Source of the DNA: Stegostoma tigrinum
Lineage: Eukaryota
Direction of reading: 5' to 3'
NCBI RefSeq assembly: GCF_030684315.1
Contig: NW_026728203.1
Span: 124,001 to 188,000, forward strand
Length of the DNA stretch: 64,000 bases
In this document: piece after piece, positions 7,194 to 55,948 of the stretch
Position numbering within the stretch: position 1 is the stretch's first letter
Layout: each line of letters opens with the position of its first letter
Translations under genes and position numbers: made by a program
Notes under the pieces: generated by a model
What the model was told of the DNA's origin: nothing
What the model saw: the letters and a program-made list of their open reading frames with translations, nothing else
Databases searched by the model: none

Positions 7194-9308
7194 CTTCACT
7201 ATTCCTGCTCACAATCACAAGGACAACTCTGGAACAAAGGCCTCAATCCCCAAAGCTGTTGTGTTTCTACTCCTGAGACAACCGGCACTCACCCAGAGGG
7301 AGACCGAACTGATGATGACTGACAGTTGCTGCTAGCCAATCAGGAGCCACCCCTGCATACAGGCACCAATGAGAGAGAGGGGGAGGGTGTGTTAAGCAGA
7401 GCTGATCAGAGGTGGAGATGAGAGTCAGGTCTGGATGGTTATTCTGTGATTGGAACAGCAGGAGGCCATTCGGCATCTCAAACCTTCTGCACCACTCAAT
7501 CAGGTCATGGGTCATTTGGTTCTTTTCTGAAAGAAGTAAATATGGTTTGAGAAAAGATTGCTCGTTTTGTTTTTAAATTATGGTGGTTGTGATCAACTGC
7601 ACAAGGGACTCATTGAGGAAGGGGAGTGTCAGTTTCTCAGCCTGTTGTGCTGGGATTTGGGAAAGAAAGGTGGGAAATTGGCTCGGGGTCATCGAAAATT
7701 GTCATAGTGTCAGCTGTGGAAAAGACAGGAAGGATGTTCCTGATGATGGAAAAGTTTAGGATCAGGGGTCACAGCCTAAGGACACATTTAGGACTGAAAT
7801 GAGGAGAAATCTCTTCACCGAGAGAGTGGGGGTCCTGTGGAATTCTGTGCCACAGAAAACATTTGAGGCCAAAACTTTGAATGTTTTCCAGGAGCAGTTG
7901 GGTGTAGCTTTGAGGGCTGCAGGGATCAAAGAGTATGGAGAGAGAGTGGGAAGATGGGACTGAGTTATGGAATCAGCCACAATCACATGGAATGGCAGAG
8001 CAGTCTGGAGGGGGCTGAATGGCCGAATCCAACAATTTTTTTTCGATGATTCTAAGTTTGTACAACCAGTGCAGCCAGGGTATTGTGATGCAGGGGTAAT
8101 GTCCCTAGCTGTGGACCAGGAAGCCTTGGTCCAAGTCCATACCAGATCCAGAGATTTTGTAACATCTTTACAGGCAGAATTAGAAAACAACCAGAACAGG
8201 TGCAGGCACAAAGGACCGAATGGCCGCCTGCTGTGCCACAACAATTCTCCGATTCTGTGATGGGTCTGTACCTGAGCAGCATCTCCCTGCCTCCAGCTCC
8301 TGCCTGTGGATTGTCACCTCGCAGTGATGGAGAGCCTCGAGTGTTCTGTTGGTTCTGAGAGTGATACCTGAAGAGGATTTCACCTCCTGGCAGGGCCACC
8401 CAGGACGGTACGATCGAGGGGAGGGTCCTGGTAAAGTGCAATGCAAAACAAGTTCCCAACGGCCATCCAGGTGGAAGATAGGCGTGTGCTATCGTTGGCT
8501 GTGACGGTGGGTGAAGGTCAGCAGTGGGGGGATCCCCAGTCAACATTTCTTTGCCAGTGGAACTGGGTCTACCTTGTGTAAAGGACCATGTCTCTGCTGA
8601 TGTGTAACAGCTTTCCCACATTAAAGGTGCCTTGTACAGGTGCCCACTGAGAGGAGTACAAAGGCCCTCTCCAAACTCTGAGAATTTCCTGGGGGAACAT
8701 GCAGAGGATTTTTAATGATAGGAGGCCATTTGGCCCATCGTGCCTGATTCAGTTTCTGAAAGCATTCCACACCCAGCCCCACTCTCCAGCCCTATGTCTG
8801 TATCCCTCTAAATTTGCCACTTCCATATATGTATACAGCTGCTTTTCTAAAGCCACCTACGGAATCTGCGTCCATCACTCCTGTCAGCTACGCATACCAA
8901 ACCCTACCAACTTTCTGAGTGAAGAGGTTTCTCCTCCTCTCACTGTGAGCTCCCTCACTGACAAATTGTGACCCCTCGTCACTAACGTATCCACTGGTGA
9001 AAACAGAATATCCCCCTTTACCCTGACAGAATTGGTGATAATTTTGATCACTTCAACAAGTGCTCCTTGCTCCAAGGAGAATAAGCGCTATTTCTTTAAT
9101 CTTTCCGTGTGTCTGAAATTCCCCATTCCAGGTGTCATTATTATAAATCACCTTTGAACTCTGTCCAGGGCTTGCATGCCCTTCCTTAAAAGCCACGCCC
9201 AGAACTGAGCACATCACTGCAAATGTGGTCTAACCAATGAGTTGTAGAGGGGTATCATCAATTCCTTGCTTTTATACTCGATGCCTCAATTTGAAAACAC
9301 AAGGTTCA

Positions 9309-10498
9309 TAGAACAATACAGCGCAGAACGGGCCCTTCGGCCCTCGATGTTGCGCCGACCTGTGAGCTAATCCAAGCCCCACCTCCTACACCATCCCGTC
9401 ATCATCCATATGCTTATCCAAGAAATGTTTAAATGCCCCTAACGTGGCTGAGTTAACTACATTGGCAGGCAGGGCTTTCCACGCCCTTACCACTCTCTGA
9501 GCAAAGAACCTGCCTCTGACAAATGTCTTAAATGTATCACCCCGCAATTTGTAGCTATGCCCCCTTGTACAAGTTGAAGTCATCATCCTCGGAAAAAGAC
9601 TCTCACTGTCCACCCTATCTAATCCTCTGATCATCTTGTATGTCTCTATTAAATCCCCTCTTAGCCTACTTCTCTCCAATGAGAACAGATCCAAGTCCCT
9701 CAGCGTTTCTTCATAGGGCCTGCGCTCCAGACCAGGCAACATCCTGGTAAATCTCCTCTGCACCTTTCCCAATGCTTCCACATCCTTCCTGTAATGGGGT
9801 GACCAGAACTGCACGCAATATTCCAAATGAGGCCGCACTAGCGTTTTGTACAGTTGCAGCATGACATCACGGCTCCGGAACTCAATCCCTCTACCAATAA
9901 AACCTAACACACGGTAAGCCTTCTTATCAGCATTATCAATCTGGGTGACAACTTTCAAGGATCTATGTACATGGACACCAAGATCCATCTGCACATCCGC
10001 ACTGCCAAGAATCTTTCCATTGACCTAGTATTCTGCCTTCCTGTTATTCCCCCAAAATTGAATCAACTCACATTTATCTGCATTGAACTCCATTTGCCAC
10101 CTTTCAGCCCAATTCTGCAGTTTATCCAAGTCTCCCTGCAACGTGCAACATTCTTCCACACCGTCCACCACTCCACCGACTTTAGTGTCATCTGCAAACT
10201 TACTAACCCATCCACCTATGCCTGCGTCCAAGTCATTTATAAAAATGACAAACAGCAGTGGTCCTAAAGTAGATCCTTGAGGCACACTACGAGTGACCTG
10301 ACTCCAGGCTGGATATTTTCCATCAACCACCACTCGTTGCCTTCTTACAGAAAGCCAGTTTCTAATCCAAACTGCTAAATCTCCCTCAATTCTCTGCCTC
10401 TGTATTTTCTCCAATAGCCTACCATGTGAAACCTTATCAATGGCTTTACTGAAGTCCAATTACACCACGTCAACTGCCCTTCCCTCATCCACATGCTT
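9309..10498 (-). mobile_element. 5'-truncated CR1 LINE (reverse transcriptase C-terminal part), insertion a; ORF interrupted
   Basis: ORFs 10025-10459 and 9386-9994 contain MDFSKA, VPQGS, KFADDTK and LVRPHLEYCVQFWSP. Flanked by ggttca (9303-9308 and 10499-10504). An empty site is visible near 2457. Confidence 0.93.
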
Positions 10499-12264
10499 GG
10501 TTCACCACAGCCTTCTCAATAACAGCATCATCTTGGCTGGTCACTTTCAGATAATCACATACTTGAAACCCAAAGTCTCTCTGCTCCTGTACTCACATCA
10601 GATTTGGAACATTGAGCCTGTTTTGTCTTTCTATGTTTCTCAAACAAAATGTGTTATTCACATATTTTTAGTGTTGAAATTAGAAAGTGATTGTCAAAGT
10701 CAAGCCTTACACAATAAATATCTAACAGCACGTGTGTTGTCTAAGGAGCTTTGGTGGATTTCTACAACATTTGGTGATAGTACACATTGCAGTCCCTGTG
10801 TGTCAGTGGTGGAAGGAGTGAATCTCGTGGCTGCTCTGAGCTGGCAACTGTTAAGCTTCTGGAGTGTGGGACTGAGGCCCATTGTCCTGATTCTGTCTGA
10901 AAAACTCTCTTTGGGCATTATGAACCTAAAAATGAGCATGCAATTCCTAGTCTGAATAAAATATCCTTTTCACTGAAGTCATTTAGGGAAGGGAACTGCC
11001 AAACTGCCATCCTTACCTGGTCTGGCCAGTATATGACACCAAGCCTAAAGCACTGTGGTTGACTAATTGTCCCATGGGCAGTTCAGAGAGAGGATAAATG
11101 CTGCCTGGTCAGTGACATCCTTATCCTGTCAAGGAATTGTCAGTGGTCACCCATTAGAAACCAGTGACTGATTGTGATTGACAGCAATGAGCTAGACCCA
11201 ATGCAGCGTGTGTGGAGCCACATGGAGGCCAGATTACATCAGAAAGCTGATTTTCTTCACAATTAAATGTAAAGGAAATTGGAACTACTGACTTCTGCAA
11301 GTGGTATTTTGTTTTTAGCTTTATTGTCATCAGGTGTCCTCAGCATTTGTCACCTTTGCATTGCAGAGCAAGGACAGGAGTTACAGCAGATGCTTTAGAA
11401 GGTGGGCACTGCTTCATTGCCTAATAGAGGCCATAGTCATTAGCATTGTCAGGGAGAAAGCAGAGCTTTCATTCTACTGAATGGAAAGGACATACTAGAG
11501 AAACAATTCTCTAGCGCAGGAAACATGTAAATGGTAAGCAATTGCAGAAAAGCAGGTGTACCTTGCACGATTGGTCAACTTTATATTCTTGTAATGAGGA
11601 ATTTTGTGACCTATTAAAGTCAGTAGGATTTAAGCAAGAGAACAAGTAGGTGGAAAACACCTCATGGCCTGGCAACAAAATCAGTCAAGAGATAAACACG
11701 TGTCTCATGTCCCGGTTCTGTTCAACACTTCTCACTACCAAACCTGAGATTTCCCAGCAGCTTTTGTTCCAGGTTTCCAGTGTCAGCTTGGTTTTTCCAA
11801 AAATGCTGAAGATTGAATGAATGGACGGGCCTTGGCAATGCCTAATGTTTAGGCACAGGACAGATTTCAGTCATGGTTTTGAGCCGAAGCTGGTCCTGAA
11901 AAATTGTCCTGGGAAAGCTGAGGACAGATTTTGTTCTGGCATTGTCTGCAATGCAGATATTTGCCAGTTGTGGCATTTCCAAGGACAAGATTGCCCACTC
12001 AATCCCTACAGACAGACGCTCAGCAGAAGCAAACACCGAGCAAATTACTGGGGCAGGCATTGAATCAAAGGTTGCAAGAAAGAACAGAAAATGGATTTGA
12101 TTACCAGATGTTAAAACACAAAAAACCTCCAAGAACCAGAAGCTATGAAAATTACACACTGTACTCAGTTCCATGGTGAACACTCTTTTAATTTGCTCAG
12201 AGAACAACTAGTCATTTAGTAGAATGAGGTCACCATGTACAACAGATATAGATATTGACCCCAT

Positions 12265-14674
12265 TCAATGGAGTGGCAGCCTGTCAAACATGTAGTCTCC
12301 AATGCCATCGTCAGGGGCTCCCAGTCTCTTCAGGTTGGTGGTGTGATCTCCCAGCTTCTTGATCATCTTCACTTACTTATCCAAGTAGTGCCTCTCCATG
12401 AAATCATAGCTGGAAGACAAAATTAATCCAACAAGGATCAAAAAATGTCAGTGACCTCCCATGACAGAAGTGACCATCACCTCCCTATGGGGGAGGGGCA
12501 TGCAAGTGATGCCTTCACAAGGTTTTGTTTAAACATCCTGCAGGAGGCAGGTAGAAAAATAATTGGATTCCCCACCCTGGAAGTACACAAACAGATCACT
12601 TTCTACCAGGAAAGGGATAAAACCTCACATGAGGGTCTATGTGGTCAGAGGCAAGTTTGTGCAGATCCAGCAGACTCTGGTTCACATCCTTCTCCATCTG
12701 CAGAGCTCTCTGCATCACCTCCAGACCATTGCCGCACTCATCCTGCTCTGGCTTCTGAAGGGAGGGAAGCAGGAACAGAAAGCACAGCTCAGCAGGCAGT
12801 TCTATCATTAGTCTACATCTGATCAGTTAGTTATCCCTCATCATTTCCAGGGGTTACATTCAGACAAAAAATTTTACTTGGATACAAAAACCCTCTAGAT
12901 TTTATGCTGGCCTGAGAATAAAGAAATGTTAACATATCTCACTGTTACTGTGAATTCTGAAAGAAGTCGTATCTAGAATCAGTCGCAATGGAAGTAATCC
13001 CTTGCTTTACTGTTTGATGTAGTGACCAGAATGGTCCCAAGGCATTACAAACCTCTTCTAGATGTAGTGAGGTTGGATGCTGCTGCTTTTTGTAGCTGCA
13101 AGTTCTCAGCCTTACCTTTTGTTACCTCACCTTGTCCATATAGAGTCACATACAGGGACATGTGCTCACCATCCAGTAGCCTGGATCATCTGAATTGCCT
13201 TCTGCTATTGAGTCACAAATGCAAAGTATTTCCCTTTTCCCTAAACAAATCCTGTTTCGGGGAACAACTTGCCCTTGACATAGTATTTGATCAATCCTGA
13301 AGCTAAATAGATGGAGATACCATTCGATTGTAGCTGCTCAAAAAGCTGCAAACAGACAGACATTCTCAGAATCCAACCTTGATGTCCTGCAGGAGGACTC
13401 AGCCTCCACGTTTATTCTGGAATGCCATCAGTTTCTCAGCGTGTTCCCGCTCCTCATGGGACTGCTCCTTGAAGAACTCAGCAAAGTGATGGAGGGCAAC
13501 ATCATCCCGGTCAAAGAGAGAGAACTGCAAACAGACAAAATGGGAAGTAAATTTCACTCAATTCAGCTTGGTTTTGCTCACGAAATGGAAGTTAGATGGA
13601 CAGTAAGAAGACAGGTATTTACATTTATGGTCATCCATAAACTAAACTAGACAGATATTTGTTCAAACATCTAGAAATAAAGATTAAGTAGCACCCGCTA
13701 CAACCGCTGGTAGGTGACTTGGTGAGACAGTGCACGGTGACGGTCACAGCTGGCAACAGGCATTAGACATCCCTGCACTGCAGGTCAGAAACACTATTAC
13801 CCAGTGCTGGAAGCCAATCAGGGCATTGTCCAACTGAATGAAGGGACATGTGCATGTTGACCAAGAGAAGCTGAAATCTGAGCTCCTCACATTACCAACA
13901 TCACTCATCTGATTTAGCCCCACTGTCCTAACACCTCATCTGCACAAGAGACAGTGACTGATTTTTGTTCCAGATAATCCATCTTGGGAGTGGAAAAAGT
14001 CTGCTCCTCATAAGTAGCAACTAAAAACCATGAAGGAAAGGTCACCGGACCAAAAACAGGAACTGATTTCTCACCACAGATCCTACCAGACCCACTAAGC
14101 TTTTCCAGCAGCTCATTTCAGTCTTTTATTTCCAGTAGTTAATCACAGTTAGGATGTTTATTAAAAAAAAGGCTTCATTAAAAGGACAAGATATAAAAAG
14201 TTAGATTTGGACTGATGCAAGCTTCCACAAGGATGTAAATGATTTCAAATATAAATGGGCCATTGATATCAACATGGAAGGAGGAGTTGAATTAAGAAGC
14301 AGAACCAGGCCATCCCTCAGCACCAAAAATGTGCTCTGCCCAGAATTACAACATACTGGGGACTCCTAGACAAGAGCCAGCTCCAACACAAGACAAGCTT
14401 AAAATTGCTACAGAATTAGCATTAAGAGCACTCACAGGATTCATTCCAGGAAGGACAACAGACAAGATATATGGTAGTACTAAATCATTGAGCAAGAAGC
14501 CACTTAAAGGCTCAGTACAATCATATCACAGCCCTAACACTGAAATAGACCATTCAAGATCACAAGCCTCACCATGGAGAGGTAAACATAGGAGGAATAA
14601 AGCTCCAGGTTGATCTGCTTGTTAACAGCATCCTCACAGTCCTTGTGGTAGTTCTGACACGCTTGGGAGGCCAT
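12265..14674 (-). pseudogene. Ferritin pseudogene, copy B. Exons 14674-14573, 13524-13378, 12754-12629, 12409-12265
   Basis: Premature TGA in exon 2 (13399-13401, RGG*), 2-bp deletion at the start of exon 4 (145 nt), TAA replacing the ferroxidase Gln codon (12373-12375), and a promoter deletion. Confidence 0.92.
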
Positions 14675-15881
14675 CATCACTAGCCTTGTTCATTAAAACC
14701 AAGACCACCCTAGAACTGAGTTGCTCCCCGACAAGCTCTGTATTTATACTCCTGGGGGCCATCCCGCACTGACACAGAGAAGGGCAGAACTGATGATGAC
14801 TGGCAATTGAAAAAAGCTTTAACATTTTGTTTCTAAATTAAGGCGGTTGTGACAAACTGCACGAGGAAGTCAATGAAGAAGAGGTGTCAGTTTCTCAGCC
14901 TGTTGTGCTGGGATATGAGACAGAAAGGTGGCAAATTGGCTCTGGGTCATAGAAAACTGTGACAGGATCAGACGGGGCAAGGACAGGAAGGATGTTCCCA
15001 ATGATGGGGGAGTCCAGGATCAGGGTATCCTGATGTAAGAGGACTGGGTTGGACATTTAAGACTGAGAGGAATACAAACCCAAAATTTACAAAAGTTCCT
15101 GGGTGGACATTCAGAGGATTTTTAACGACAGAGGCCATTCAGCCCATCATGTCCGTATCGGCTTCCGAAAGAGCTACCCACCTAGTCCCCCTCTCCAGCC
15201 CTATACCCTCTATATTCGTCACTCCCAAGTATATATCCAGCTCTTGTTTTGAAGCCACCTATGGGATCTACCTCCGCCACTCTCCCAGGCATCAGATTCC
15301 AAATCCTAACAACCTTCTGAATAGAGAGGTTTGTCCTCATCTCAGAGCTCCCTTACTGACAAATTGTGACCCCTCACCACTGCCGTATCAACTGGTGAAA
15401 ACAGGATATCCTCCTTTACCCTGCCAGAATGTTCATTATTTTTGTCACTTCAACGGGGACACCTCTTAATCAACTATGCTTCAAGGAGATTTATCCCAAT
15501 TTCCTTCATCTTTCCTTGTATCTAAAATCCCTCATTCCTGGTGTCATTCTCGTAAATGCCCTTTGAACTCTGTCGAGGGCTTTAATGTCCTTCCTTAAAT
15601 ACCATGCCCAGAACTGAACACAGTACTGCAAATGTGGTCTAACCCATGATTTGTGGAGGTGTAACATCTATTCCTCGCTTTTATACTCTCCGCATCTATT
15701 TGAAAACACACATTTCACAAAAGCCTTCTTCATAGCAGGTTAGTCCCGCTCGGCCACTTTCAGATAATCACATACTTGAAACCCAAAGTCCCTCTGCTCC
15801 CGTACTCACCTCAGATTTGTAACATCGAGCCTGTTTTGTCTTTCTATGTTTCTCAACCAAAATGCATTAATCTTTTATGTT

Positions 15882-17043
15882 ATAGAACATAGAACATTAC
15901 AGCACAGTACAGGCCCTTCGGCCCTGGCGTTGTGCCGACCTGTCATACCGATCTGAAGCTCATCTAACCAACACTATTCCACGTACGTCCATATGCTTGT
16001 CCAATGACGACTTAAATGTACTTAAAGTTGGTGAATCTACGACCGTTGTAGGCAAAGCGTTCCATACCCTTACTATTCTCTGAGTAAAGTAACTACCTCT
16101 GACATCTGTCCTATATCTTTCACCCCTCAATTTAAAGCTATGGCCCCTCGTGCTCGCCGTTTCCGTCCTAGGGAAAAGGCTCTCCCTATCCAACCTGTCT
16201 AACCCTTTGATTATCTTATATGTCTCAATTAAGTCACCTCTCAACCTTCTTCTCTCTAACGAGAACAGCCTCAAGTCCCTCAGACTTTCCTCGTAAGACT
16301 TTCCCTCCATACAAGGCAACATCCTAGTAAACCTCCTCTGCACCCTTTCCAAAACTTCCACATCCTTCTTATAACGCGGTGACCAGAACCGTACGCAATG
16401 CTCCAAGTGCGGCCGCACCAGAGTTTTGTACAGCTGCAGCATAACCTCTTGGTTCCGGAACATGATCCCTGGATTCATAAAAGCTAAAACACTGTATGCC
16501 TTCTTAACAACCCTGTCAACCTGGGTGGCAACTTTCAAGGATCTGTGTACATGGTCACCGAGATCTCTCTGCTCATCTACACTACCAAGAATCTTACAGT
16601 ACTTTGCCTTCCGGTTCCTCCTACCAAAGTACAACACCTCACACTTGTCCGCATTAACCTCCGTTTGCCACCTCTCAGCCCAGCTCTGCAACTTATCTAC
16701 GTCTCTCTGTAACCTACAACATTCTTCGTCACTATCCACATCTCCACCGACCTTCGTGTCGTCTGCAAATTTACTAACCCATCCTTCTACGTTTATAAAA
16801 ATGACAAACAGCAGTGGACCCAGCACCGACCCTTGCGGTACACCGCGAGTAACCGGTCTCCAGGATGAACATTTCCCATCAACCACCACGCTGTCTTCTT
16901 TCAGCAAGCCAATTTCTGATCCAAACTGCTATATCTCCCACAATCCCATTCCTCCGTATTTTGTACAATAGCCTAATCGAAAGCCTTGCCGAAATCCATA
17001 TACACCACATCAACCGGTTTTCTCTCATCTACCTGTTTGGTCA
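15882..17043 (-). mobile_element. 5'-truncated CR1 LINE, insertion b
   Basis: ORF 15960-16907 has GVPQGSVLGPLLF and KFADDTK. Tandem tagaaca tail. Flanked by tatgtt (15876-15881 and 17044-17049). An empty site is visible near 31450. Confidence 0.93.
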
Positions 17044-24400: not shown

Positions 24401-27134
24401 TGGTGGAAGGATTGACGAGAGTGGCTACTCGTTTGATGGAGGCTGTCAACATTCTGGAGTGTTAGACTGCTACCTGTTATCCTGAGTCTGTCTGACATCA
24501 CTGAATTTCACGGACATCATTCTCATTCCAGAAGACAGGGTCCAAACAAGCCTCTTCTGGTTCACTAATGTCCTTGTTTGTAATAAACTGCCATCCTTAC
24601 CTGATCTGGCCTATGTGTAACCCCACAGCAAAGGGTTTTAATTTGAATCACTCATGGGCTGGCTGGGTAATCAGAGATGGATAATAAATGCTGCCTGTCA
24701 GTGATATCCTGATCCTGTTAAAGCACTTACACAAACCCGTCACATTGTAATTCAGGGCTGATTGATAGTGATTAGGCCCCCACAGTGCTCTGTGTGGAGT
24801 CACAGGTCAGCCAGTCGACAGCAGGAGAGCTGATCTGCTTGAAAATTGAACACAAAGGTAAAAATTGGAACTGCCAATTTCTGCACGTGGTATTTGCATT
24901 TTAGCTTGATTTTCCACCAGGCATCTGCAGTATTTGTCACCTCTTTGCAAGGTCGTAATAGAAATTATCACACAGGGAACAAGGTGGGCACTGCTTCATT
25001 CCCAAGGCACTTCCTAGTCATTAGCATTCTAAGACAAGGTAGATTTTTCTTTCTCCTACATCTAAGAAGGAAATACCGAAGAAACTAATTCAACAGCTCG
25101 AGGAACAGTGACATAAGCAATTGCTTATCAAAAGGGTAAAACCTGCAGCAAAGCAGTGTATATTACTCTTTAAAAGGAGGAATTGTACAATCTACTAAAG
25201 TCAGTAACATCTAGGCCTTATAACAAGTTGCTGGAAAACACCTCACTGTCAGTCAACACAAAAACAAAATCAAATGAAGAGATGATCACGTGTCTCATGT
25301 CCAGGTTCTGTTCAACCCGTCTCCCTCCCAATGCTGCCAAACCTGAGATTTCCCAGCAGGTTTTGATCCTGGTTTCTAGAAACTGCTTATTTTAAAAGAG
25401 ACCCAAACACATGGCCAAGGGCAGTGCATTAGATCAGTGCCTAACCTTTAGGCAAAGGAATGATTTCAGTGTGTGTATTGATTAGAAGCTGGTCCTGCAA
25501 ACTTGTCCCTGTGAGTACATGTCAGTAATGCTGATTTATCTGTCAACAACCTTACCAGTTATGGAATTTCCAATCAAAGGACTACCCACTGAATCCCCAG
25601 ACACAGCAGAATCAAACACTGATCAAGTTACTGGGGCAGGCATTGAATCCAAGGTTGTCACAAAGAACAAAGGATTGATGATCAGACGTTAAAACACAAA
25701 GCTCCAAGAACCAGAAGCTATGAAAATACAACACTGTACTCAGTTCCATGGTGAACATGATTTTAATTTGCTCAGAGCACAACTAGTCATTGAGAAGAAT
25801 TAAGTCACCATGTACAACAGATATAGATATTGACCCCACTCAGCTGAGTGAGAGCCTGTCAAACAGGTACTCTCCCATGCCATTGGCAGTGGCTCCCAGT
25901 CTCTTCAGGTTGGTGGTGTGATCTCCCAGCTTCTTGATCATCTTCACTTGCTCATCCAAGTAGTGCCTCTCCAGGAAGTCACACAGCTGGAAAGCAAAGA
26001 GGAGAACTGGTTAAATCTGACCAAATGCAGCTTGGGAGACCGAACAGTGAAGTGATGTCATGGAGATTGCCAAATACACGCAAGAAAGTGCTCAGTTTTA
26101 GAAACAGGAGGATCTTGGTATAACCCAAGAAAACCCTCCACAATGTCAAGTGAGATCTTGTGGCTAACAAAAAGGACCAAGTGTCTGATCCCTGGTTTTA
26201 GACAAAATCCCAGATTTAAATACACCACACTCACATGAGGGTCCGTGTGGCCAGAGGCCAGTTTGTGCAGATCCAGCAGACTCTGGTTCACATCCTTCTC
26301 CATCTGCAGAGCTCTCTGCATTACCTCCAGACCATTGCCCCACTCATCCTGCTCTGGCTTCTGGAGGGAGGGAAGCAGGAACAGAAAGCACAGCTCAGCA
26401 GGCAGTTGTATCATTAGTCTACATCTGATCAGTTAGTCATCCCTCATCATTGTAGGGGAGGTACTACAGGCCAACTTGACCTTGGTAAAACACATGCTGT
26501 ATTTGGTACTGTTCTTGAAGGGGGACATTTCTAAATAAATCCTGCTATGCTGTGATCAGAATGATCTCAAGGCATCAGAAACATCCTCGAAGTATAAAGG
26601 CTTCATACTGATGCTTTCCACACCTGAAAGATTTCTGTTTTCCCTTTTGACACCTCATCTTGTCCAAAGCAACGGTAGACACCGATATGTGCTCACCATC
26701 CAGAATAAAGGATGATCACAATTGCCAACTGTTGTTCAATCACAAGTGCAAAAGTGTTTCCTTTTAGTGAAGGGAATCATATTGTGCTGAGCAACCTCCC
26801 ATTCATACAGTATTTGTCTAATCCTGAACCTGATCATATTGAGATATCAGTCCATTGTATTGAGCTGAAAAAATTGAATCCAACCTTGATGTCCTGCAGA
26901 AGGACACGACCTCCACGTTTATTCTGGAATATGATCAGCTTCTCAGCATGTTCTCGCTCCTCATGGGACTGCTCCTTGAAGAACTCAGCAAAGTGACGCA
27001 GGGCAACATCATCCCGGTCAAAGTAAGAGAACTGTGGGGAAAGAAACAGGCAGGAAAGGGAAATGTATCTGAAATTCAATGGCACTCCTCAATCAGAAAC
27101 TAACCCAGTCACCATCTTGATTCCACATTTAATG

Positions 27135-27785
27135 ACAAAAGAGCTGTAGCACAGGAGCAGGCTTTGACCCTCCAACACTGCACCGAGCGACATCTGGTCT
27201 CAAATCGGTCATCTATTTTCAAAGGGGCTGTATCCCTTTGCTCCCTGCCCATCCATGTACCTGTCCAGATAGATCTTAAGACACTAGTGTGACTGCGTCT
27301 ACCACCTCCACAGGCAGTGTGTGCCAGGCACCCTCCAACCTGTGTAAAGAGCTTTCCAAACATATCCACATGATAAATTGCCTGTAGCATTCAGTGGTAT
27401 GGGGGTTATAGGGGAAATGGGTCTGGGTGGGATGCTTCAAGGGCCAGTGTGCACTGAGCTAAAGGGCCTGTTTCCACACTGAAAGGAATCTCACCCAATC
27501 TTCCCTGCTCTTACTTTGAGCTCATGACCCCTAGTAATTGAGTTCCCCACTCAAGGAAAAAGCTTCTTGCTATCCACCTTGTCTACACCCCTCATGAATT
27601 TGAGGAGCTCAATCAGGACCCCACCCCCAAATCTGCCACCTTCTCATGAAAATAATGCTCATCTACTCAACCTTTCTTCGTAGCTCACACCCTCCATACC
27701 AGGCAACATCCTGGTGAACCTCCTCTGCACCCCCTTCCAAAGCATTCACATCCTTTTGTTAGTATGGCAACCAGAACTGGACATT
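27135..27785 (-). mobile_element. CR1 3' fragment in intron 1 with a nested, oppositely oriented SINE fragment (paralogues near 41590-42250 and 56055-56575)
   Basis: ccataccaggcaacatcctggtgaacctcctctgcacc is the reverse complement of CR1 VQRRFTRMLPGM. The 3'-end motif acaggagcaggc is near 27150. Confidence 0.75.
27368..27497 (+). mobile_element. 5'-truncated HE1/V-SINE-like fragment nested in the CR1 relic (paralogues near 41827-41955 and 56290-56410)
   Basis: taaattgcc…ggggaatgggtctgggtggg…aagggcctgtttccacactg…aatct resembles the 3' half of the shark HE1 SINE, from memory. Confidence 0.55.
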
Positions 27786-28781
27786 TAATTACTGGAACAT
27801 GATAGACAGGCAGAAGGTCTTCTCCCATGGATTATAGAAGAAAGAGAGGACACACAACCAGCCGATCAAGGACGCAGCACTGAATGAAAGAGCACGTGGA
27901 TGGACAGAGCCATGAATCATGGTGAACGCCAGCATTACAAACATCACCCACCTGAATAACCCCACTCTGTCCTACCATCAACTCAGCACTGAGTTCTAAC
28001 TGGTTTCTTTTTCTGTAATTCAGATTTGGAGTATGAAAACATGCCACACTTGTCTTTCCTCCTACTGAATAGGTAGAGGACTTTTGGGGAAGAGTCACTG
28101 GACCCAAAACATGAACTGATTTCTCTAAATCCTGCCAGATCTGTAAAGCTATTCCAGCTATTTTTGTTGCTGTTTCTAATTTCCAGCAGTTGCTTTTCTT
28201 TTAGAAGAGAACTATTTCAGACCAGAGCAGCCTGGTGAATGGGGCAAAGTTTTAAGAGTGCAAGTACATTTTGCATAGAAATATTCACCAGGGAAATCTT
28301 CTCTTTAAAAGAAAATTGTAACCAAATTTAAGGAAAATATAGGTTTATCAGCAACATCAGCTCATCCCTTCAGAGGAAGGAGAAAAGTCACTAAGGAGTA
28401 CATTGTCCAGAGATAACAAAGTGGCCATTGTCACCCAGGAGTCAGTTGCAATACAAGACAAACTTCAAGTTTCCAACAGAGTCAGTGTGAACCATTTCAC
28501 TGGGATTCAGTCAGGGAAGGGCCACAGACCAAAACACATGCTACAACTAAATCATGAAACTAGGCAAGAAAATAAACCTAAGAGAGTCAATGCAAATATA
28601 TCACAGGCTTCAATTTGAGGTCAGGTCTTCAATGTCAGAAGGCTCACCATGGAGAGGTAAACATAAGAGGAAGGGAGCTCCAGGTTGATCTGATTGTTAA
28701 CAGCATCTTCACAGTCCTTGTTAATAAAATGTGAGGCTGGATGAACACAGCAGGCCAAGCAGCATCTCAGGAGCACAAAAG

Positions 28782-28811
28782 CTGACGTTTCGGGCCTAGA
28801 CCCTTCATCAG
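28782..28811 (-). ncRNA. Minimal hammerhead ribozyme motif in the Penelope-like 3' terminal repeat
   Basis: Minus strand reads CTGATGA-AGGGTCTAGGCCC-GAAAC-GTC-AG: both catalytic boxes, a GGG/CCC stem II and a GUC cleavage triplet, as described for Penelope-like elements. Confidence 0.75.
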
Positions 28812-29825
28812 AGAGGGGGATGGGGGGAGGGAACTGGAATAAATAGGGAGAGAGGGGGAGGCAGACCGAAGATGGAGAGTAAAGAAGATAGGTGGAGAGG
28901 GTGTAGGTGGGGAGGTAGGGAGGGGATAGGTCAGTCCAGGGAAGACGGACAGGTCAAGGAGGTGGGATGAGGTTAGTAGGTAGTGGGGGGTGCGGCTTGG
29001 GGTGGGAGGAAGGGATGGGTGAGAGGAAGAACCGGTTAGGGAGGCAGAGACAGGTTGGACTGGTTTTGGGATGCAGTGGGTGGGGGGGAAGAGCTGGGCT
29101 GGTTGTGTGGTGCAGTGGGGGGAGGGGATGAACTGGGCTGGTTTAGGGATGCAGTAGGGGAAGGGGAGATTTTGAAACTGGTGAAGTCCACATTGATACC
29201 ATATGGCTGCAGGGTTCCCAGGCGGAATATGAGTTGCTGTTCCTGCAACCTTCGGGTGGCATCATTGTGGCAGTGCAGGAGGCCCATGATGGACATGTCA
29301 TCAAGAGAATGGGAGGGGGAGTGGAAATGGTTTGCGACTGGGAGGTGCAGTTGTTTGTTGCGAACTGAGCAGAGGTGTTCTGCAAAGCGGTCCCCAAGCC
29401 TCCGCTTGGTTTCCCCAATGTAGAGGAAGCCGCACCGGGTACAGTGGATGCAGTATACCACATTGGCAGATGTGCAGGTGAACCTCTGCTTAATGTAGAA
29501 TGTCATCTTGGGGCCTGGGATGGGGGTGAGGGAAGGAGGTGTGGGGACAAGTGTAGCATTTCCTGCGGTTGCAGGGGAAGGTGCCGGGTGTGGTGGGGTT
29601 GGAGGGCAGTGTGGAGCGAACAAGGGAGTCACGGAGAGAGTGGTCTCTCCGGAAAGCAGACAGGGGAGGGGATGGAAAAATGTCTTGGGTGGTGGGGTCG
29701 GATTGTAAATGGCGGAAGTGTCGGAGGATAATGCGTTGTATCCAGAGGTTGGTAGGGTGGTGTGTGAGAACGAGGGGGATCCTCTTGGGGGCGGTTGTGG
29801 TGGGGGCAGGGTGTGAGGGATGTGT

Positions 29826-29858
29826 CTAACCCTAACCCTAACCCTAACCCTAACCCTA
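29826..29858 (-). repeat. Interstitial telomeric repeat, 5.5 x TTAGGG (33 nt, perfect)
   Basis: Plus strand ctaaccctaaccctaaccctaaccctaacccta lies between the truncated element end and the TSD. Confidence 0.95.
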
Positions 29859-29944
29859 TCGCTCTTCACAGTCCTTGTGGTAGTTCTGACACACTTGGGA
29901 GACCATCTTCACTATTCCCACTCACTAAAACCAAGACCACTCAA

Positions 29945-30237: not shown

Positions 30238-30329
30238 TACAACAAGGTGTTGAGCTGGATGAACACAGCAGGTCAGGCAGCATCAGAGGAACAGAAAAGC
30301 TGATGTTTCAGGTCTGGACGCTTCTTCAT
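30238..30329 (-). mobile_element. Solo ~90-bp Penelope-like 3'-terminal fragment upstream of the promoter (paralogue 43559-43650)
   Basis: gctggatgaacacagcagg…gcagcatc…aaagctga(c/t)gtttc is clearly similar to 28736-28810 and is absent from the other promoter types. Confidence 0.75.
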
Positions 30330-43234: not shown

Positions 43235-46200
43235 CTTGACTATCCCCACTGACTAAAACCAAAACCACTCAAGAAGTGAGTTGCTCTTCCACAAGCTCTG
43301 TATTTATACTCCTGGGGCCATCCTGCACTCACCCATGGAGGGGTAGAACTGATGATGACTGACAGTTGCTGCTAGCCAATCAGGAACCACCCATGCATAC
43401 AGGCACCAATTAGAGAGAGGGGGTGGGTGTGTTAAGCAGAGCTGATCAGAGGTGGAGATGATAATCAGGTCTGGATGGTTATTCTGTGATTGGAATAGCA
43501 GGAGGCCATTCAGCATTTCAAACCTGCTGTCCCACTCAATCAGTTCATGGGTCATTTGTAGAACAAGGTGTTGAGCTGGATGAACACAGCAGGTCAAGCA
43601 GCATCAGAGGAACAGGAAAGCTGACGTTTCAGGTCTGGACACTTCTTCATAAATTATTTGGCTCTTTTTTAAAAAGAACTGCATTTGGTTTGAAAAAAGC
43701 TTGAACATTTTGTTTCTGAATTAAGGTGGTTGTGACAACTGCATGAGGAAGTCAATGAAGAAGAGGTGTCAGTTTCTCAGCCTGTTGTGCTGGGATATGA
43801 GACAGAAAGGTGGGAAATTGGCTCTGGGTCGTAGCAAACTGTGACAGGATCAGACGGGGCAAGGACAGGAAGGATGTTCCCAATGATGGGGGGAGTCCAG
43901 GATCAGGGTATCCTGATGTAAGAGGACTGGCTTGGACATTTAAGACAGAGAGGAATACAAACCCAAAATTTACAAAAGTTCCTGGGTGGACATTCAGAGG
44001 ATTTTTAATGACAGAGACCATTGAGCCCATCATGTCCGTATCGGCTTCCGAAAGAGCTACCCACCTAGTCCCCATCTCCAGCCCTATGCCCTCTTTATTC
44101 ATCACATCCAAGTATATATCCAGCTCTTGTTTTGAAGCCACCTATGGGATCTACCTCCGCCACTCTCCCAGGCATCACATTTCAAATCCTAACAATCTTC
44201 TGAATAGAGACCTTTGTCCTCATCTCAGAGCTCCATTACTGACAAATGGTGACCCCTCATTACTGCCATAATCAACTGGTGAAAACAGAATATCCTTCTT
44301 TACCCTGACAGAATTGTTCATTATTTTGATCACTTCAACAGAGTCACCTCTTAAACATTTATGCTCCAAGGAGATTTACCCCAATTTGTTTCATCTTTCC
44401 TTGTATCTAAAATCCCTCATTTCTGGTGTCATTCTTGTAAGTGGGCTTTGAACTCTGTCCAGGGCTTTAATGTCCTTCCTTAAATACCACACCCAGAACT
44501 GAACACAACACTGCAAATGTGGTCGAACCAATGATTTGTAGAGGTGTAACATCTATTCCTCACTTTTATTCTGTCTGCGTCTGTTTGAAAACACATTTCA
44601 CAAAATCCTTCTTCATAGCAGCTTAGTCCCGCTCGGTCACTTTCCAATAATCATACACTTGAACCCAAAGTCCCTCTGCTCCTGCACTCACCTCAGATTT
44701 GTAACCTCAAGCCTGTTATGTCTTTCCATGTTTCTTCAACCAAAACGCATTCATCTTTTATTTTGAAATTTGAAAGCGATTGGCAACATCAAATCTTACT
44801 GAATAAAAAAATCTAACTGCTCATTCACATATTATCCTTTCCAAAGCAAAGCTGTTTTTGGCTTCATCATGGATGATTTACAGCTAATGCTCGGAATGTA
44901 ATCATATTCCCCACTCGCAATCCTAGATGAGGATTGAAAAGAAGCAGGATCTCTGTCTATCCTCTCAAATTCACTTGGAAACTTCAAGCACAGACATCCT
45001 TTACACTTCCACACAGGGTGGGGGGGGGGGTGCGCTTGGGCAAACATTATCGTAATCAATTAAGCAGCTCTCTGCCCAGGTTCATTCTCGAAGTTTTGTG
45101 CATAACCAGCTTTGGGTCAAAACTGCTAGACCTGTGGAGTCCCCATGTAATTGAACTTGACAATTTCACCAAAGAACTTCCGTCCAGAGGTATGTGAACC
45201 ACTCTGAGGTCAGGCTTAACATTAGATTAGAGAACATGGTGGCTTGCCTTCTTGAATTGCTGTTGCCCGTGTGGCGCAGGCAGATCCACAATGTTGCCTT
45301 TGAGGGAATTCCAGGATTCTGATCTACCAATGCTGGAGGAATGGGGTTATGTTTCCAACTCAGCACAACAAGTAGCTTGGTGTAGAAATTACAGAGCGTG
45401 ATGTTCCCATGTATCAGATATCCTTCTCCCATGGCAAGTAATAGGGGCTTTAGAATGCTTTGGTGGATTTGTATAGGAATTGGGAGATGATACCCATTGC
45501 AGTCCCCACACATCAGTGTTGGAAAGAGGCAATCCAGTGGCTGCTTGGAGATGAAGCCAATCAAGTTTCTGGAGTGTTGGACTGTTCTCCTGATTCTGTC
45601 TGACAACACTCTGGAATTAACTTAATGCTAATCATTAGCTTAAGTGTCAAAAACCCATCCTTAACTGGTCTGCGTATGACCCTACAACTACACTAATTGT
45701 TTGACTCTGGCCTGGCCTTGGGACAACCAGACATGGATAATAAACACTATCCTTTTAATAAAAGGAGACCATCACAAATTAGGCAGCCATAGTGCAGCAC
45801 ATGTGCAGTCAGCTGCAGGAGCACTGATTTCATTGTAAATAAGGTAAAAATCTGAACTGCTGTTTTCTGCCAGTGGTAGTTTGGTTCCAGCTTTATTTTC
45901 ACCATGTGCCCTTGGCATTTGTTATCTCTGCATTGCAGAGCAATGCTAGAAGTTCTACCACATGGGCTCCAAGGTGCGCACTGCTGCATTTCCAAATACA
46001 GGTCATTCTAAATGAAGAGAGAGACTGATACAAGGGAAAGCTGATTTTGCCATTCTCCGAGATGCGGCCACTGGACAAAGTCCTTCCACCACTGATAAGG
46101 CAGAAAGGGGAAAACGAGAGAGAAACCGATTCCCTACCTGTGGAAGCAATTGCTTATCAATAAAATCTGAAAAAAGCAGTGCATCTTTGATGCTAAATGT

Positions 46201-49110: not shown

Positions 49111-51194
49111 CTTCACTATTCCTGCTCACAAGCACCAAGAAAACTCTAGAACTAAGTCTCTCTCTCCCACAGGCTCTTGTATTTATAGTCCTGGGACCAT
49201 CCTGCAGTCACACAGAGAGGCAGAACTGATGATGACTGACAGTTGCTGCTAGCCAATCAGGAACCACCCCTGCATACAGGCACCAATGAGAGAGAGGGGG
49301 AGGGTGTGTTAAGCAGAGCTGATCAGAGGTGGAGATGAGAGCCAGGTCTGGATGGTTATTCTGTGATTGGAACAGCAGGAGGCCATTCGGCATCTCAAAC
49401 CTTCTGTACCACTCACTCATGTCAGAGGTCATTTGGTTCTTTTTTAAAAGAAGGTGATTTGGTTTGAGAAAAGTTTTCACATTTTTTTATATTAAGGTGG
49501 TTGTGAGCAACTGCATGAGGGATTCAATGAGGAAGAGGGGCATCAGTTTCTCAGCTTGTTGTGCTGGGATTTGGGAAAGAAAGTTGGGAAATTGTCTCTG
49601 GGTCATCGAAAATTATAAGTGTCAGCTGTGGAAAAGACAGGAAGGATGTTCCTGATTATGGGGGAGTTCAGGACCAGGGTTTGCAGTCTAAGAATACATT
49701 TAGGACTGAGGTGAGGAGAAATCTCTTCACCTCGGGGGGGGGCGAAGCGGTGGAACCTGTGGAATTCTCTGCCACAGAAAAGGATTGAAGCCAAAACAGG
49801 AATTGGGGAGAGCTTTGAGGGCTGGATCAAAAGGGTGAGAATATGGTGCTGAGTAATGGAATCAGCCACAATCACATGAATGGCAGAGCAGGCTGCAAGG
49901 GATGAATGGCCGACTCAACATTTATTTTCTATGATTCTATGTTTGTGCAACCAGCGCAGCCAGGGTCTTGTGGTTTAGGGGTAATGTCCCTAGCTTTGGA
50001 CCAGGAGGCCTTGGTACAAGTTCCTACCAGATCCAGAGATCTTAAATCATCTCTACAGGCAGATTTAGAAAACAACCAGAACAGGTACAGGCACAAAGGA
50101 CCGAATGGCCTCCTGCTGTGCCATAACAATTCTCCGATTCTGTGGTGGGTCTGTACCTGAGCAGAATCTCCCTGCCTCCAGCTCCTGCCTGTGGATTGTC
50201 ACCTCGCAGTGATGGAGAGCCTCGAGTGTTCTGTTGGTTCTCAGAGTGATACCTGAAGAGGATTTCACCTCGTGGCAGGGCCACCCTGGACGGTACGATC
50301 GAGGGGAGGGTCCTGACAAAGTGCAATGCAAAACCAGTCCCCAGCGGCCATCCAGGTAGAAGATTAGGTGTGTGCGATCGTTGGCTGTGACAGTGGGTGA
50401 AGGCCAGCAGTGGGGGGATCCCCAGTCAACATTTCTTTGCCAGTGGAACTGGGTCTACCTTATGTAAAGGACCATGTCTCTGCTGATGTGTAACAGCTTT
50501 CCCACATTAAAGGTGCCTTCTACAGGTGGAATTCAAACCCTGTCCCCAAACTCTCAGAATTTCCTGGGTGGAAATTCAGAGCGTTCTTCACAACAGGAGG
50601 CAGTTCAGCCCACCGTTCCTGTATTAGCTTCTGAAAGAGCTACCTGATTAGTCCCACTTTCCAGCCCTATCTCTGTCACTCTCTAAATTCGTCACTTCTA
50701 ACGACATATCCAACTCTTGTTTTGAAACCACCCATGGAATCCATCTCTGTCACTCTCCCAGGCAGCACATTCCAAATCCGAACAACTTTCTGAGCAAAGA
50801 GGTTTCTTCCCATTTCACTCTGATCTCCCCTACTGACAAACTGTGAACTCTCGTCACTGACAAGTCAACTGCTGAAATCAGAATATCCTGTTTACTCTAT
50901 CAAAATTGTTCATAGTTTTGATCACGTCAACAAGGTCACCTCTCAATAAGGTCACCTGCAAGGAGATTTACCCCATTTTCCTTAATCTTTCCGTGTCTCT
51001 AAAATTCCTCATTCCTGGGCTCATTCTGATAAATCTCCTTTGAACTCTTTTGCAGGTTCTTCTTGTCCTTCCTTGAATGCCACGCCCAGAACTGAGTACA
51101 TAATTGAAATGTGGTCTAACCAATGATTTGTAGAGGTGTAACATCAATTCATTGCTTTTATACTCGATGCCTCAATTTGAAAACACAAGGTTCA

Positions 51195-52384
51195 TAGAAC
51201 AATACAGCGCAGAACGGGCCCTTCGGCCCTCGATGTTGCGCCGACCTGTGAGCTAATCCAAGCCCCACCTCCTACACCATCCCGTCATCATCCATATGCT
51301 TATCCAAGGACTGTTTAAATGCCCCTAACGTGGCTGAGTTAACTACATTGGCAGGCAGGGCTTTCCACGCCCTTACCACTCTCTGAGTAAAGAACCTGCC
51401 TCTGACAAATGTCTTAAATGTACCACCCCGCAATTTGTAGCTATGCCCCCTTGTACAAGTTGAAGTCATCATCCTCGGAAAAAGACTCTCACTGTCCACC
51501 CTATCTAATCCTCTGATCATCTTGTATGTCTCTATTAAATCCCCTCTTAGCCTACTTCTCTCCAATGAGAACAGATCCAAGTCCCTCAGCGTTTCTTCAT
51601 AGGCCCTGCGCTCCAGACCAGGCAACATCCTGGTAAATCTCCTCTGCACCTTTCCCAATGCTTCCACATCCTTCCTGTAATGGGGTGACCAGAACTGCAC
51701 GCAATATTCCAAATGAGGCCGCACTAGCGTTTTGTACAGTTGCAGCATGACATCACGGCTCCGGAACTCAATCCCTCTACTAATAAAACCTAACACACGG
51801 TAAGCCTTCTTATCAGCATCATCAACCTCGGTGACAACTTTCAGGGATCTATGTACATGGACACCAAGAGCCATCTGCACATCCACACTGCCAAGAATCT
51901 TTCCATTGACCCGGTATTCTGCCTTCCTGCTATTCCCCCAAAAGTGAATCAACTCACATTTATCTGCATTGAACTCCATTTGCCACCTTTCAGCCCAATT
52001 CTGCAGTTTATCCAAGTCTCCCTGCAACGTGCAACATTCTTCCACACCGTCCACCACTCCACCGACTTTAGTGTCATCTGCAAACTTACTAACCCATCCA
52101 CCTATGCCTGCGTCCAAGTCATTTATAAAAATGACAAACAGCAGTGGTCCTAAAGCAGATCCTTGAGGCACACCACGAGTGACCTGACTCCAGGCTGGAT
52201 ATTTTCCATCAACCACCACTCGTTGCCTTCTCACAGAACGCCAGTTTCTAATACAAACTGCTAAATCTCCCTCAATCCTGTGCCTCTGTATTTTCTCCAA
52301 TAGCCTACCATGTGTAGCCTTATCAAAGGCTTTACTGAAGTCCATGTACACCATGTCAACTGCCCTTCCCTCATCCACATGCTT
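51195..52384 (-). mobile_element. 5'-truncated CR1 LINE, duplicate of insertion a, with an uninterrupted 368-aa RT fragment
   Basis: ORF 51272-52378 (MDFSKAFD, GVPQGS, FADDTK). Same ggttca flanks and breakpoints as 9309-10498. Confidence 0.95.
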
Positions 52385-54761
52385 GGTTCACCTCAGCCTT
52401 CTCAATAACAGCTTCATCTTGGCTGGTCACTTTCAGATAATCACATACTTGAAACCCAAAGTCTCTCTGCTCCTGTACTCACATCAGATTTGTAACATCG
52501 AGCCTGTTTTGTCTTTCTATGTTTCTCAAACAAAATGTGTTATTCACATATTTTTAGTGTTGAAATTAGAAAGTGATTGTCAAAGTCAAGCCTTACCCAA
52601 TAAATATCTAACAGCACGTGCACATATTATCTTCTCCACAAAGAAGCTGTTTTTGACATTATCCTGGATGATTCAGTTGGAATGTGAAAACTATAATCCT
52701 ATTTTGCACACAGTCCTCAATGACCATAGACAAGAAATAGATTCTGTCTGTTCACTCTGTCAAATCCATTAATCCTCTGAAATTTCAAACACGGCCATCC
52801 CTTAACCTTCTACACAGAGGGACTGGGACAAGCCGTTGTCATCAATGAACCAGCTCTCTGTCCAAGTTCATTGCAGAAATTCTGTGCATAACCATCTTTG
52901 GGTCGAAGCTGCTAGAACTGAGCACTCCAGCAGTGGTTGAGCTAGAACTTGACAATTTCACAAAAGAACCATCAGCCAGAGGTAGTTGAAACCCTCGGAG
53001 ATCAGGCCTAACATTAGATGAGAGAATGTGGTGGCTTATGTTCTTGAATTGCTGTTGCCCATTTGGTGTAGGCAGATCCCCAATGCTGTTAGGGAGGGAA
53101 TTCCAGGATTCTGATCCAGCAACCTAGGGGAATGGGACCATGTTTCCAACTCAGGATGGTGAATGGTTTGGTGTAGAATTTAGAGGCGGTTGTGTTCCAT
53201 GTATTTGCTGCCCTTGTCCCATGGCAAGTAATGGGGGCTTTGGAAGGTGTTGTCTAAGGAGCTTTGGTGGATTTCTACAACATTTGGTGATAGTACACAT
53301 TGCAGTCCCTGTGTGTCAGTGGTGGAAGGAGTGAATCTCGTGGCTGCTCTGAGCTGGCAACTCTTAAGCTTCTGGAGTGTTGGACTGATGCCCATTGTCC
53401 TGATTCTGTCTGAACAACTCTCTACGGGCATTAAGAACCTAAAAATGAGCATGCAATTCCTCGTCTGAATAAAATATCCTTTTCACTGAAGTCATTCAGG
53501 GAAGGGAACTGCCAAACTGCCATCCTTACCTGGTCTGGCCAGTATATGACACCAAGCCTAAAGCACTGTGGTTGACTAATTGTCCCATGGGCAGTTCAGA
53601 GAGAGGATAAATGCTGCCTGGTCAGTGACATCCTTATCCTGTCAAGGAATTGTCAGTGGTCACCCATTAGAAACCAGTGACTGATTGTGATTGACAGCAA
53701 TGAGCTAGACCCAATGCAGCGTGTGTGGAGCCACATGGAGGCCAGATTACATCAGAAAGCTGATTTTCTTCACAATTAAATGTAAAGGAAATTGGAACTA
53801 CTGACTTCTGCAAGTGGTATTTTGTTTTTAGCTTGATTTTCACCAGGTGTCCTCAGCATTTGTCACCTTTGCATTGCAGAGCAAGGACAGGAGTTACAGC
53901 AGATGCTTTAGAAGGTGGGCACTGCTTCATTGCCTAATAGAGGCCATAGTCATTAGCATTGTCAGGGAGAAAGCAGAGCTTTCATTCTACTGAATGGAAA
54001 GGACATACTAGAGAAACCAATTCTCTAGCTCAGGAAACATGTAAATGGTAAACAGTTGCAGAAAAGCAGGTGTACCTTGCACGATTGGTCAACTTTATAT
54101 TCTTCTAATGAGGAATTTTGTGACCTATTAAAGTCAGTAGAATTGAAGCAAGAGAACAAGTAGGTGGAAAACACCTCATGGCCTGCCAACAAAATCAGTC
54201 AAGAGATAAACACGTGTCTCGTGTCCCGGTTCTGTTCAACACTTCTCACTACCAAACCTGAGATTTCCCAGCAGCTTTTGTTCCTGGTTTCCAGTGTCAG
54301 CTTGGTTTTTCCAAAAATGCTGAAGAGTGAGTGAATGGACAGGCCTTGGCAATGCCAATTGTTTAGGCACAGGACAGATTTCAGTCATGGTTTTGACCAG
54401 AAGCTGGTCCTGAAAAATTGTCCTGGGGAAGCGGAGGACAGATTTTGTTGTGGCATTGTCTGCAATGCAGATGTTTGCCAGTTGTGGCATTTCCAAGGTC
54501 AAGATTGCCCACTCAATCCCTACAGACAGACGCTCAGCAGAAGCAAACACCGAGCCAATAACTGGGGTAGGCAGTGAATCAAAAGGTTGTCAAAGAACAA
54601 AATCCATTTTGTGATCACTTGTTAAAACAGCAACCAGAAGCAGCTATGAAGTGACACAGTACTCAGTTCCATGGTGAACACTACTTTTATTTGCTCAGAG
54701 CACAACCAAAGCCATTCACGAGAATGAGGTCACCATGTACAACAGATATTATTGACCCCAC

Positions 54762-55948
<1,187 letters not shown>

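What the first reader, a model, noticed from the sequence alone, without database searches (positions are those of the whole stretch)
29821..29878. Telomeric repeats captured at the 5' junction of a Penelope-like insertion, inside the TSD
Seen: on the minus strand the order is target DNA (TSD), 4 filler bases GCGA, 33 nt of perfect TTAGGG repeat, then the element starting abruptly in mid-ORF. The empty site in all other exon 1 copies has no telomeric sequence. Inference: the repeats arrived with the insertion. The G-rich strand runs 5'-to-3' from the upstream target 3' end, the polarity expected if telomerase extended the free 3' OH before joining. Alternatively the element's RT switched template to a UUAGGG-containing RNA such as TERRA. 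Known: PLE reverse transcriptases are the closest retroelement relatives of TERT, but telomere association is described mainly for endonuclease-deficient PLEs, whereas this one encodes GIY-YIG.
Basis: partly seen in the sequence, partly recalled or inferred. Interest (0 to 1): 0.8.

Follow-up and report, generated by a model that had tools for sequence, protein, structure and literature searches.

The report
Telomere repeats inside a retrotransposon insertion
A jumping gene that broke one shark ferritin gene copy brought along five and a half telomere repeats at its front end, most likely a rare repair accident in which telomere DNA was patched into the break, and it matters only if it turns out to happen repeatedly.

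Summary
On the minus strand a 16-bp target-site duplication (16/16, both copies with a variant private to this paralog) encloses 4 filler bases, 33 nt of perfect TTAGGG and a 1,104-bp 5'-truncated Penelope-like element (Neptune/Nematis-type linker, GIY-YIG, minimal hammerhead) in ferritin exon 1; 8 of 8 other exon-1 copies are empty. A zebra-shark family member shows ordinary ORF sequence upstream of the join, so the tract is not family sequence and most likely arrived in the same event. New detail: the tract ends at GGTTAG with no microhomology to the element, the register where a telomerase product ends (1 in 6 by chance). Against simple telomerase priming, the filler sits on the primer side out of register and does not match the catshark telomerase RNA template flank. 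Polarity is opposite to the caps on endonuclease-deficient PLEs. Best reading: a short interstitial telomeric sequence captured in a retrotransposition intermediate, by telomerase (0.40) or by an RT template jump (0.28). One locus only; recurrence, the deciding question, could not be tested because no eukaryotic DNA collection was open. No evidence ties it to PLE-TERT kinship.

The parts
29863..29878 (-). 5' copy of the 16-bp target-site duplication (ferritin exon 1 codons ~10-15)
   Evidence: identical to 28706-28721 including a synonymous G>A private to this paralog
29859..29862 (-). 4-nt filler GCGA, origin unknown; 2 of 4 bases match the in-register telomeric continuation
   Evidence: no local template of 5 nt or more on the same strand within 28.6-30.1 kb
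29826..29858 (-). 33-nt perfect (TTAGGG)5.5 tract, G-rich on the element's sense strand, ending GGTTAG at the element join
   Evidence: last G replaces the A expected from the family's Asn codon (inferred from protein)
29534..29825 (-). 5'-truncated PLE: end of thumb/linker with CX4CxxC motif; one frameshift near 29790 and one near 29535
   Evidence: 74 of 82 residues identical to zebra-shark P0206
29133..29533 (-). GIY-YIG endonuclease domain with CCHH motif
   Evidence: 127 of 133 residues identical to P0206
28722..29132 (-). 3' region of the PLE: 39-bp tandem unit (29056-29167), C-rich UTR, 3' end
   Evidence: read-through frame 100 of 110 residues identical to P0206
28784..28811 (-). minimal hammerhead ribozyme motif of the pseudo-LTR
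   Evidence: motif scan and 4-bp stem II, fits the min-HHR description; not found by Rfam; no global fold signal, z 0.03
28706..28721 (-). 3' copy of the target-site duplication
25840..29906 (-). disrupted ferritin gene copy (ATG 29906; exons 2-4 at 26885-27031, 26235-26360, 25843-25986), one unit of a tandem array
   Evidence: reading frame otherwise open, 14 private nt of 519

Best explanation
A one-off capture of a short interstitial telomeric sequence during one retrotransposition event, made by telomerase. The PLE endonuclease nicked both strands 16 nt apart; the RT copied 1.1 kb from the bottom nick and stopped in the linker; the upstream target end was left as a 16-nt 3' overhang. Four bases were added (or miscopied in the first round), telomerase added 5.5 repeats and stopped at its template boundary (GGTTAG-3'), and this end was joined to the cDNA 3' end by an RT jump or by end-joining and filled in. 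Shown: anatomy, duplication from this allele, tract absent from family and paralogs (co-insertion about 0.93). Inferred: the overhang, the enzyme, the order of steps.
For: One TSD encloses everything and 8 of 8 paralogous sites are empty, including the sister unit (87.6% identical). Tract ends GGTTAG with zero microhomology to the family sequence; 12 of 13 vertebrate TERC 5' ends seen, catshark included, have template CTAACCCTAA, whose product ends so; chance 1 in 6. Tract is perfect and 33 nt, like young short ITSs; ITSs come with random additions (18%) or duplications (4.5%) in horse and TERC-ITS loci occur in a shark. Telomerase acts on short 3' overhangs at breaks and end-joining is expected to leave its product interstitial. 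Last TSD base plus filler is nearly in register (post hoc p 0.039).
Against: The filler lies on the primer side and breaks register, whereas about 75-78% of informative ITSs are in register at the break 3' end. Filler does not match the catshark TERC template 3' flank, and the bases after the tract do not match its 5' flank (different species). Filler position is where RT non-templated bases normally fall (14.6% of 5'-truncated L1). No TERC-derived sequence is demonstrable. n = 1.
Confidence: 0.4

Rival explanations
1. RT template jump: at the end of the truncated RNA the PLE RT jumped onto the 3' end of a free G-rich telomeric acceptor (TERRA fragment or telomeric ssDNA), copied 33 nt, added 4 non-templated bases and then joined the target.
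For: Gives the same polarity. Puts the filler at the final cDNA 3' end, as seen. R2 RT jumps end-to-end using +1/+2 non-templated bases that pair with the acceptor end, leaving a seamless join. Reverse-transcribed telomeric RNA is named as an alternative ITS source.
Against: Template jumping not reported for a PLE RT in what I read (0 occurrences of the term in PMC11167929). An RNA fragment would end in any register (GGTTAG 1 in 6), unless the acceptor was a natural telomere end (recalled: these favour TAG-3').
Confidence: 0.28
2. 5' transduction: a truncated source copy already sat downstream of a telomeric array or ITS, was read through and remobilised in trans; this copy truncated 33 nt into the inherited repeats.
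For: Explains the seamless tract/element join, filler at the target side and possibly inherited frameshifts. PLEs with this linker show microsatellite insertion bias and can mobilise flanking DNA in trans.
Against: 0 of 221 relatives carry a telomere-coded peptide (1 flagged, an RT motif); a search with the junction peptide found none among 405 candidates at E<=10. Both are weak, since gene predictions rarely include such joins.
Confidence: 0.14
3. End-joining captured a pre-existing telomeric DNA fragment between cDNA and target, with neither telomerase nor RT acting on it.
For: Fragment capture is the standing alternative for ITS origin; filler is typical of NHEJ.
Against: Either polarity would be equally likely and the end register random; both observed states favour the other models slightly. 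ITS authors argue against it from register data.
Confidence: 0.1
4. Two separate events (ITS inserted later at or near the 5' join, with deletion), or an assembly artefact.
For: ITS insertion often deletes flanking DNA (30-50%); reads not checked.
Against: Short ITSs are rare (229 human, 142 horse); one would have to land within 4 nt of the TSD and leave it whole. No telomeric sequence at the 3' join. Flanks are collinear with paralogs.
Confidence: 0.05

Closest known systems
Short interstitial telomeric sequences / TERC-ITS (Nergadze 2007 PMC2246262; Santagostino 2020 PMC7215372; Sola 2021 PMC8537989)
   Same: Short perfect TTAGGG array appearing in one step at an empty site, with random addition and flanking duplication; reported in a shark.
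   Different: Here it is co-inserted with a retroelement cDNA inside that element's TSD; not in register at the primer side; no TERC fragment shown. Sola et al. saw ITSs inside or near TEs but concluded TEs were not involved.
5' extra nucleotides and template-switch chimeras of non-LTR elements (Kojima 2010 PMC2912911; R2 jumping PMC8857657)
   Same: Foreign bases between TSD and a 5'-truncated element.
   Different: The extra sequence is telomeric; 0 mentions of telomere in Kojima 2010.
Endonuclease-deficient PLEs (Athena, Coprina, Terminons)
   Same: PLE 5'-truncated at a telomeric repeat stretch; hammerhead near the 3' end.
   Different: They lack EN, sit at chromosome ends and carry C-rich repeats after the 3' HHR. 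Capping of a cDNA 3' end gives C-rich repeats on the sense strand (inferred), the opposite of this case. This copy has EN, a TSD and an internal site.
Neptune/Nematis-type EN+ Penelope-like elements of sharks (P0206 Stegostoma, P0003 Rhincodon)
   Same: Collinear at about 90-95% amino-acid identity from linker to 3' end.
   Different: Truncated, two frameshifts, telomeric tract at the 5' join.

Membership tests
EN+ Penelope-like element | C-terminal GIY-YIG endonuclease with CCHH motif | tested here: met
   (CxxC between VVY and YIG, two His); Pfam score just under cut-off, relative P0003 above it
EN+ Penelope-like element | TERT-like RT upstream in the same ORF | tested here: inconclusive
   RT lost by truncation; present in close relative P0003 (RVT_1 E 9e-5)
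EN+ Penelope-like element | Hammerhead motif in the pseudo-LTR | tested here: met
   core motif and stem II at 28811-28784; Rfam negative; cleavage untested
EN+ Penelope-like element | Target-site duplication | tested here: met
   16 of 16
Neptune/Nematis clades | CX2-5CxxC linker motif (absent in Penelope/Poseidon) | tested here: met
   CX4CxxC; definition
Neptune versus Nematis | RT phylogeny with reference clades | not tested
EN- telomeric PLE (Athena/Coprina) | No endonuclease | tested here: not met
EN- telomeric PLE (Athena/Coprina) | Reverse-complement telomeric repeats after the 3' HHR; terminal location | tested here: not met
   no telomeric run over 8 nt outside the tract; internal gene array
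Short ITS | At least four TTAGGG units, under one mismatch per unit, absent from empty homologous sites | tested here: met
   criterion
Short ITS (telomerase-made) | Target bases in register at the break 3' end | tested here: inconclusive
   filler intervenes; near-register only
TERC-ITS | 25-98 bp TERC-derived fragment next to the repeats | tested here: not met
   only 4 nt of filler; size range
Recurrent PLE-telomerase pathway | Enrichment at many 5' junctions with variable truncation points | not testable with these tools
   no eukaryotic DNA collection; protein proxy negative but weak

The most novel reading that the evidence does not exclude
Insertion intermediates of endonuclease-bearing shark PLEs are regularly extended with telomeric repeats on the second-nick 3' end, so many 5' junctions of the family carry G-rich tracts ending GGTTAG at varied truncation points, more than CR1 junctions do. 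In the boldest form the PLE RT itself, which extends both nicked strands in vitro, iterates on the telomerase RNA template, a repeat-addition activity thought unique to TERT.
Probability: 0.1. Interest if true: 0.85.

Novelty: new variant of a known kind. Interest (0 to 1): 0.4.

Why it matters
As one locus it is a clean fossil of telomeric DNA entering a retrotransposition break, with matched empty sites beside it, and it suggests that some short interstitial telomeres begin at retroelement nicks. If recurrent, thousands of dated junctions with known cut geometry would let one test the old question whether ITSs are made by telomerase or by capture, and whether PLE and TERT share substrates. 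Without recurrence it is a rare repair accident.

Tried and rejected
Tract as fixed family sequence: rejected; 25 of 30 selected relatives show the linker motif and none has telomere-coded residues before it; 0 of 62 among the first 203 relatives. Athena-style capping: rejected on polarity, EN and TSD. Filler as TERC template flank: not matched in catshark. Filler copied from nearby DNA: no same-strand match of 5 nt or more within 28.6-30.1 kb, one opposite-strand 5-mer inside the element, chance level. Later mutation of a longer perfect tract: both changes in the first 4 of 37 nt, p 0.009. Other copies of the family in the window: only two old 75-bp 3' remnants and a 28-bp weak match. Rfam on 28.5-30.5 kb: 4 matches, all far below gathering score. 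Junction-peptide search: none of 405 candidates. One search extracted exons wrongly for 4 of 8 copies (c2, c6, c7, c10); one search replaces its counts. Literature: no report of telomeric repeats at the 5' join of an EN+ PLE or LINE inside a TSD in searches (0 hits; 0; 0); one search was for shark TERC. The library lacks most subscription papers; PMC5850863 and Onozawa 2015 were not held; one search fetched an unrelated paper. My recollection that Chlamys insertions carry 5' telomeric repeats was not borne out. Bacterial, phage and plasmid collections were not searched as irrelevant; metagenome and viral contigs stayed unchecked.

Full report
Setting. The window is a tandem array of ferritin genes on the minus strand (Pfam Ferritin) with nine exon-1 copies and one unit lacking exon 1. 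The closest named relatives of the inserted element are from zebra shark and whale shark, so the host is probably a carpet shark; the species was not determined.

Observation. Reading the minus strand: TSD 29878-29863, filler GCGA 29862-29859, 33 nt of perfect TTAGGG 29858-29826, element 29825-28722, TSD 28721-28706. It is the only run of two or more hexamers in the window; about 1e-15 such runs are expected and the next longest in-phase run is 8 nt. All 8 other exon-1 copies are empty, and both TSD copies carry an A where all 8 have G, so the duplication was made from this paralog's allele after that mutation. The sister unit (87.6% identical) is empty. Apart from the insertion the gene's frame is open, with 14 private bases in 519 (7 synonymous, 5 non-synonymous codons).

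The element. It is a 1,104-bp 5'-truncated Penelope-like element: linker with CX4CxxC, GIY-YIG with CCHH, and a minimal hammerhead at 28811-28784. By the definitions in Craig et al. (PMC8557442, passages) this is Neptune/Nematis type; the hammerhead fits Cervera and de la Pena (PMC4209133, passages), though Rfam missed it and the region folds no better than shuffles. It has two frameshifts. Zebra-shark protein P0206 matches at 74/82, 127/133 and 100/110 residues in three segments and continues upstream of the join as ordinary ORF. None of 221 relatives has a telomere-coded peptide (one flagged, an RT motif). The tract is therefore not family sequence. P0206 has Asn where the window reads Asp across the join, so the last G belongs to the tract: it ends GGTTAG with no microhomology (inferred from protein; family DNA not seen).

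What the junction says. For telomerase: in the supplement of Sola et al. (PMC8537989, part 2 of 3) 12 of 13 visible TERC templates, catshark included, read CTAACCCTAA, whose product ends GGTTAG; chance is 1 in 6. A 16-nt stagger leaves a 3' overhang of the kind telomerase uses, and Kinzig et al. (10.1101/2022.10.31.514589, passages; supplements not available) expect end-joining to leave such products interstitial. Against: the filler lies on the primer side and breaks register, while about 75-78% of informative ITSs are in register (PMC2246262, passages and section 14; PMC7215372, passages). The filler does not match the catshark template's 3' flank, nor the following bases its 5' flank (by eye). 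The last TSD base plus filler is nearly in register (post hoc p 0.039; later mutation unlikely, p 0.009). By eye, the last two TSD bases plus filler also match six bases just before the P3 A-run of catshark TERC in sense orientation, the geometry of type-A TERC-ITS (main text parts 1-4 of 7); about 0.13 such matches are expected by chance in 540 nt and the species differs, so it is only a lead.

Rivals. An RT jump onto TERRA or telomeric ssDNA gives the same polarity and explains the filler side: R2 RT jumps via non-templated bases (PMC8857657, passages) and 14.6% of 5'-truncated L1 carry extra bases there (PMC2912911, passages). A source copy lying beside a telomeric array would do the same and predicts sibling copies with this join; the peptide search found none among 405 candidates, weak evidence. 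Capture of a DNA fragment and two separate events are less likely. The Anolis PLE protein cleaves and extends both strands (PMC11167929, parts 1-2 of 4), which leaves open that the PLE RT made the G-rich strand itself on a C-rich template. My weights are 0.40 telomerase, 0.28 jump, 0.14 source element, 0.10 capture, 0.05 two-step or artefact, the rest other; these are judgements. Co-insertion itself is about 0.93.

Comparison. Endonuclease-deficient PLEs are also 5'-truncated at telomeric repeats (PMC3846280, PMC6431247, passages), but there telomerase caps the cDNA end at a chromosome tip, which by geometry gives C-rich repeats on the sense strand, the opposite of this case; the membership tests fail. 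The tract meets the short-ITS criterion, and ITSs with random additions or duplications are known, including TERC-ITS loci in catshark. What I did not find in print is an ITS co-inserted with a retroelement inside its TSD (searches; PMC9977147 and PMC4003774 passages negative). The library is partial; Morrish 2007, Gladyshev 2007, Arkhipova 2017 and Onozawa 2015 were not seen, so the absence is weak.

Limits and verdict. No eukaryotic DNA collection was available, so recurrence, reads and the species' own TERC are untested. The in-window control is small: two independent CR1-like insertions (each duplicated) and an old PLE remnant have no such repeats. Nothing here shows that PLE-TERT kinship matters. 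Verdict: real, well-formed, a new variant of known ITS and 5'-filler phenomena, single instance; interest 0.4, rising to about 0.85 if family-wide enrichment is found (probability about 0.1).

Noticed in passing
window 9307-10501 (copy 51193-52387) and 15888-17041 (copy 56607-57760), minus strand: Two independent CR1-like LINE insertions (RVT_1; CR1 label recalled from the 3' tail), 74.5% alike and at different target sites, begin at the same element position within a few bases. Coincidence or a preferred truncation point / shared short derivative.
   Followed up: partly
window 54760-57000: Ferritin unit with exons 2-4 but no exon 1; at about 56,575 it switches from one paralog type to another inside a LINE 3' end region, a likely unequal-crossover product.
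   Followed up: partly
window 12271-14685: Ferritin copy with in-frame stops and 26 private differences, a pseudogene (exon 4 boundary approximate).
   Followed up: no
window 30254-30328 and 43575-43649: Old 75-bp remnants of a related PLE 3' end with a decayed hammerhead region upstream of exon 1 in two sister units.
   Followed up: partly
window, upstream of all exon-1 copies: No iron-responsive-element-like motif found by a simple pattern on the minus strand; crude scan.
   Followed up: no
window 29826-29845 region, plus strand 29811-29825: The cDNA strand's 3' end at the truncation point is itself G/T-rich; no telomeric repeats were added in that polarity.
   Followed up: no
PMC8537989 supplement, Table S1: The hagfish and Arctic lamprey TERC entries show the same sequence, and the hagfish coordinates equal the sea lamprey's; probably a table error.
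   Followed up: no
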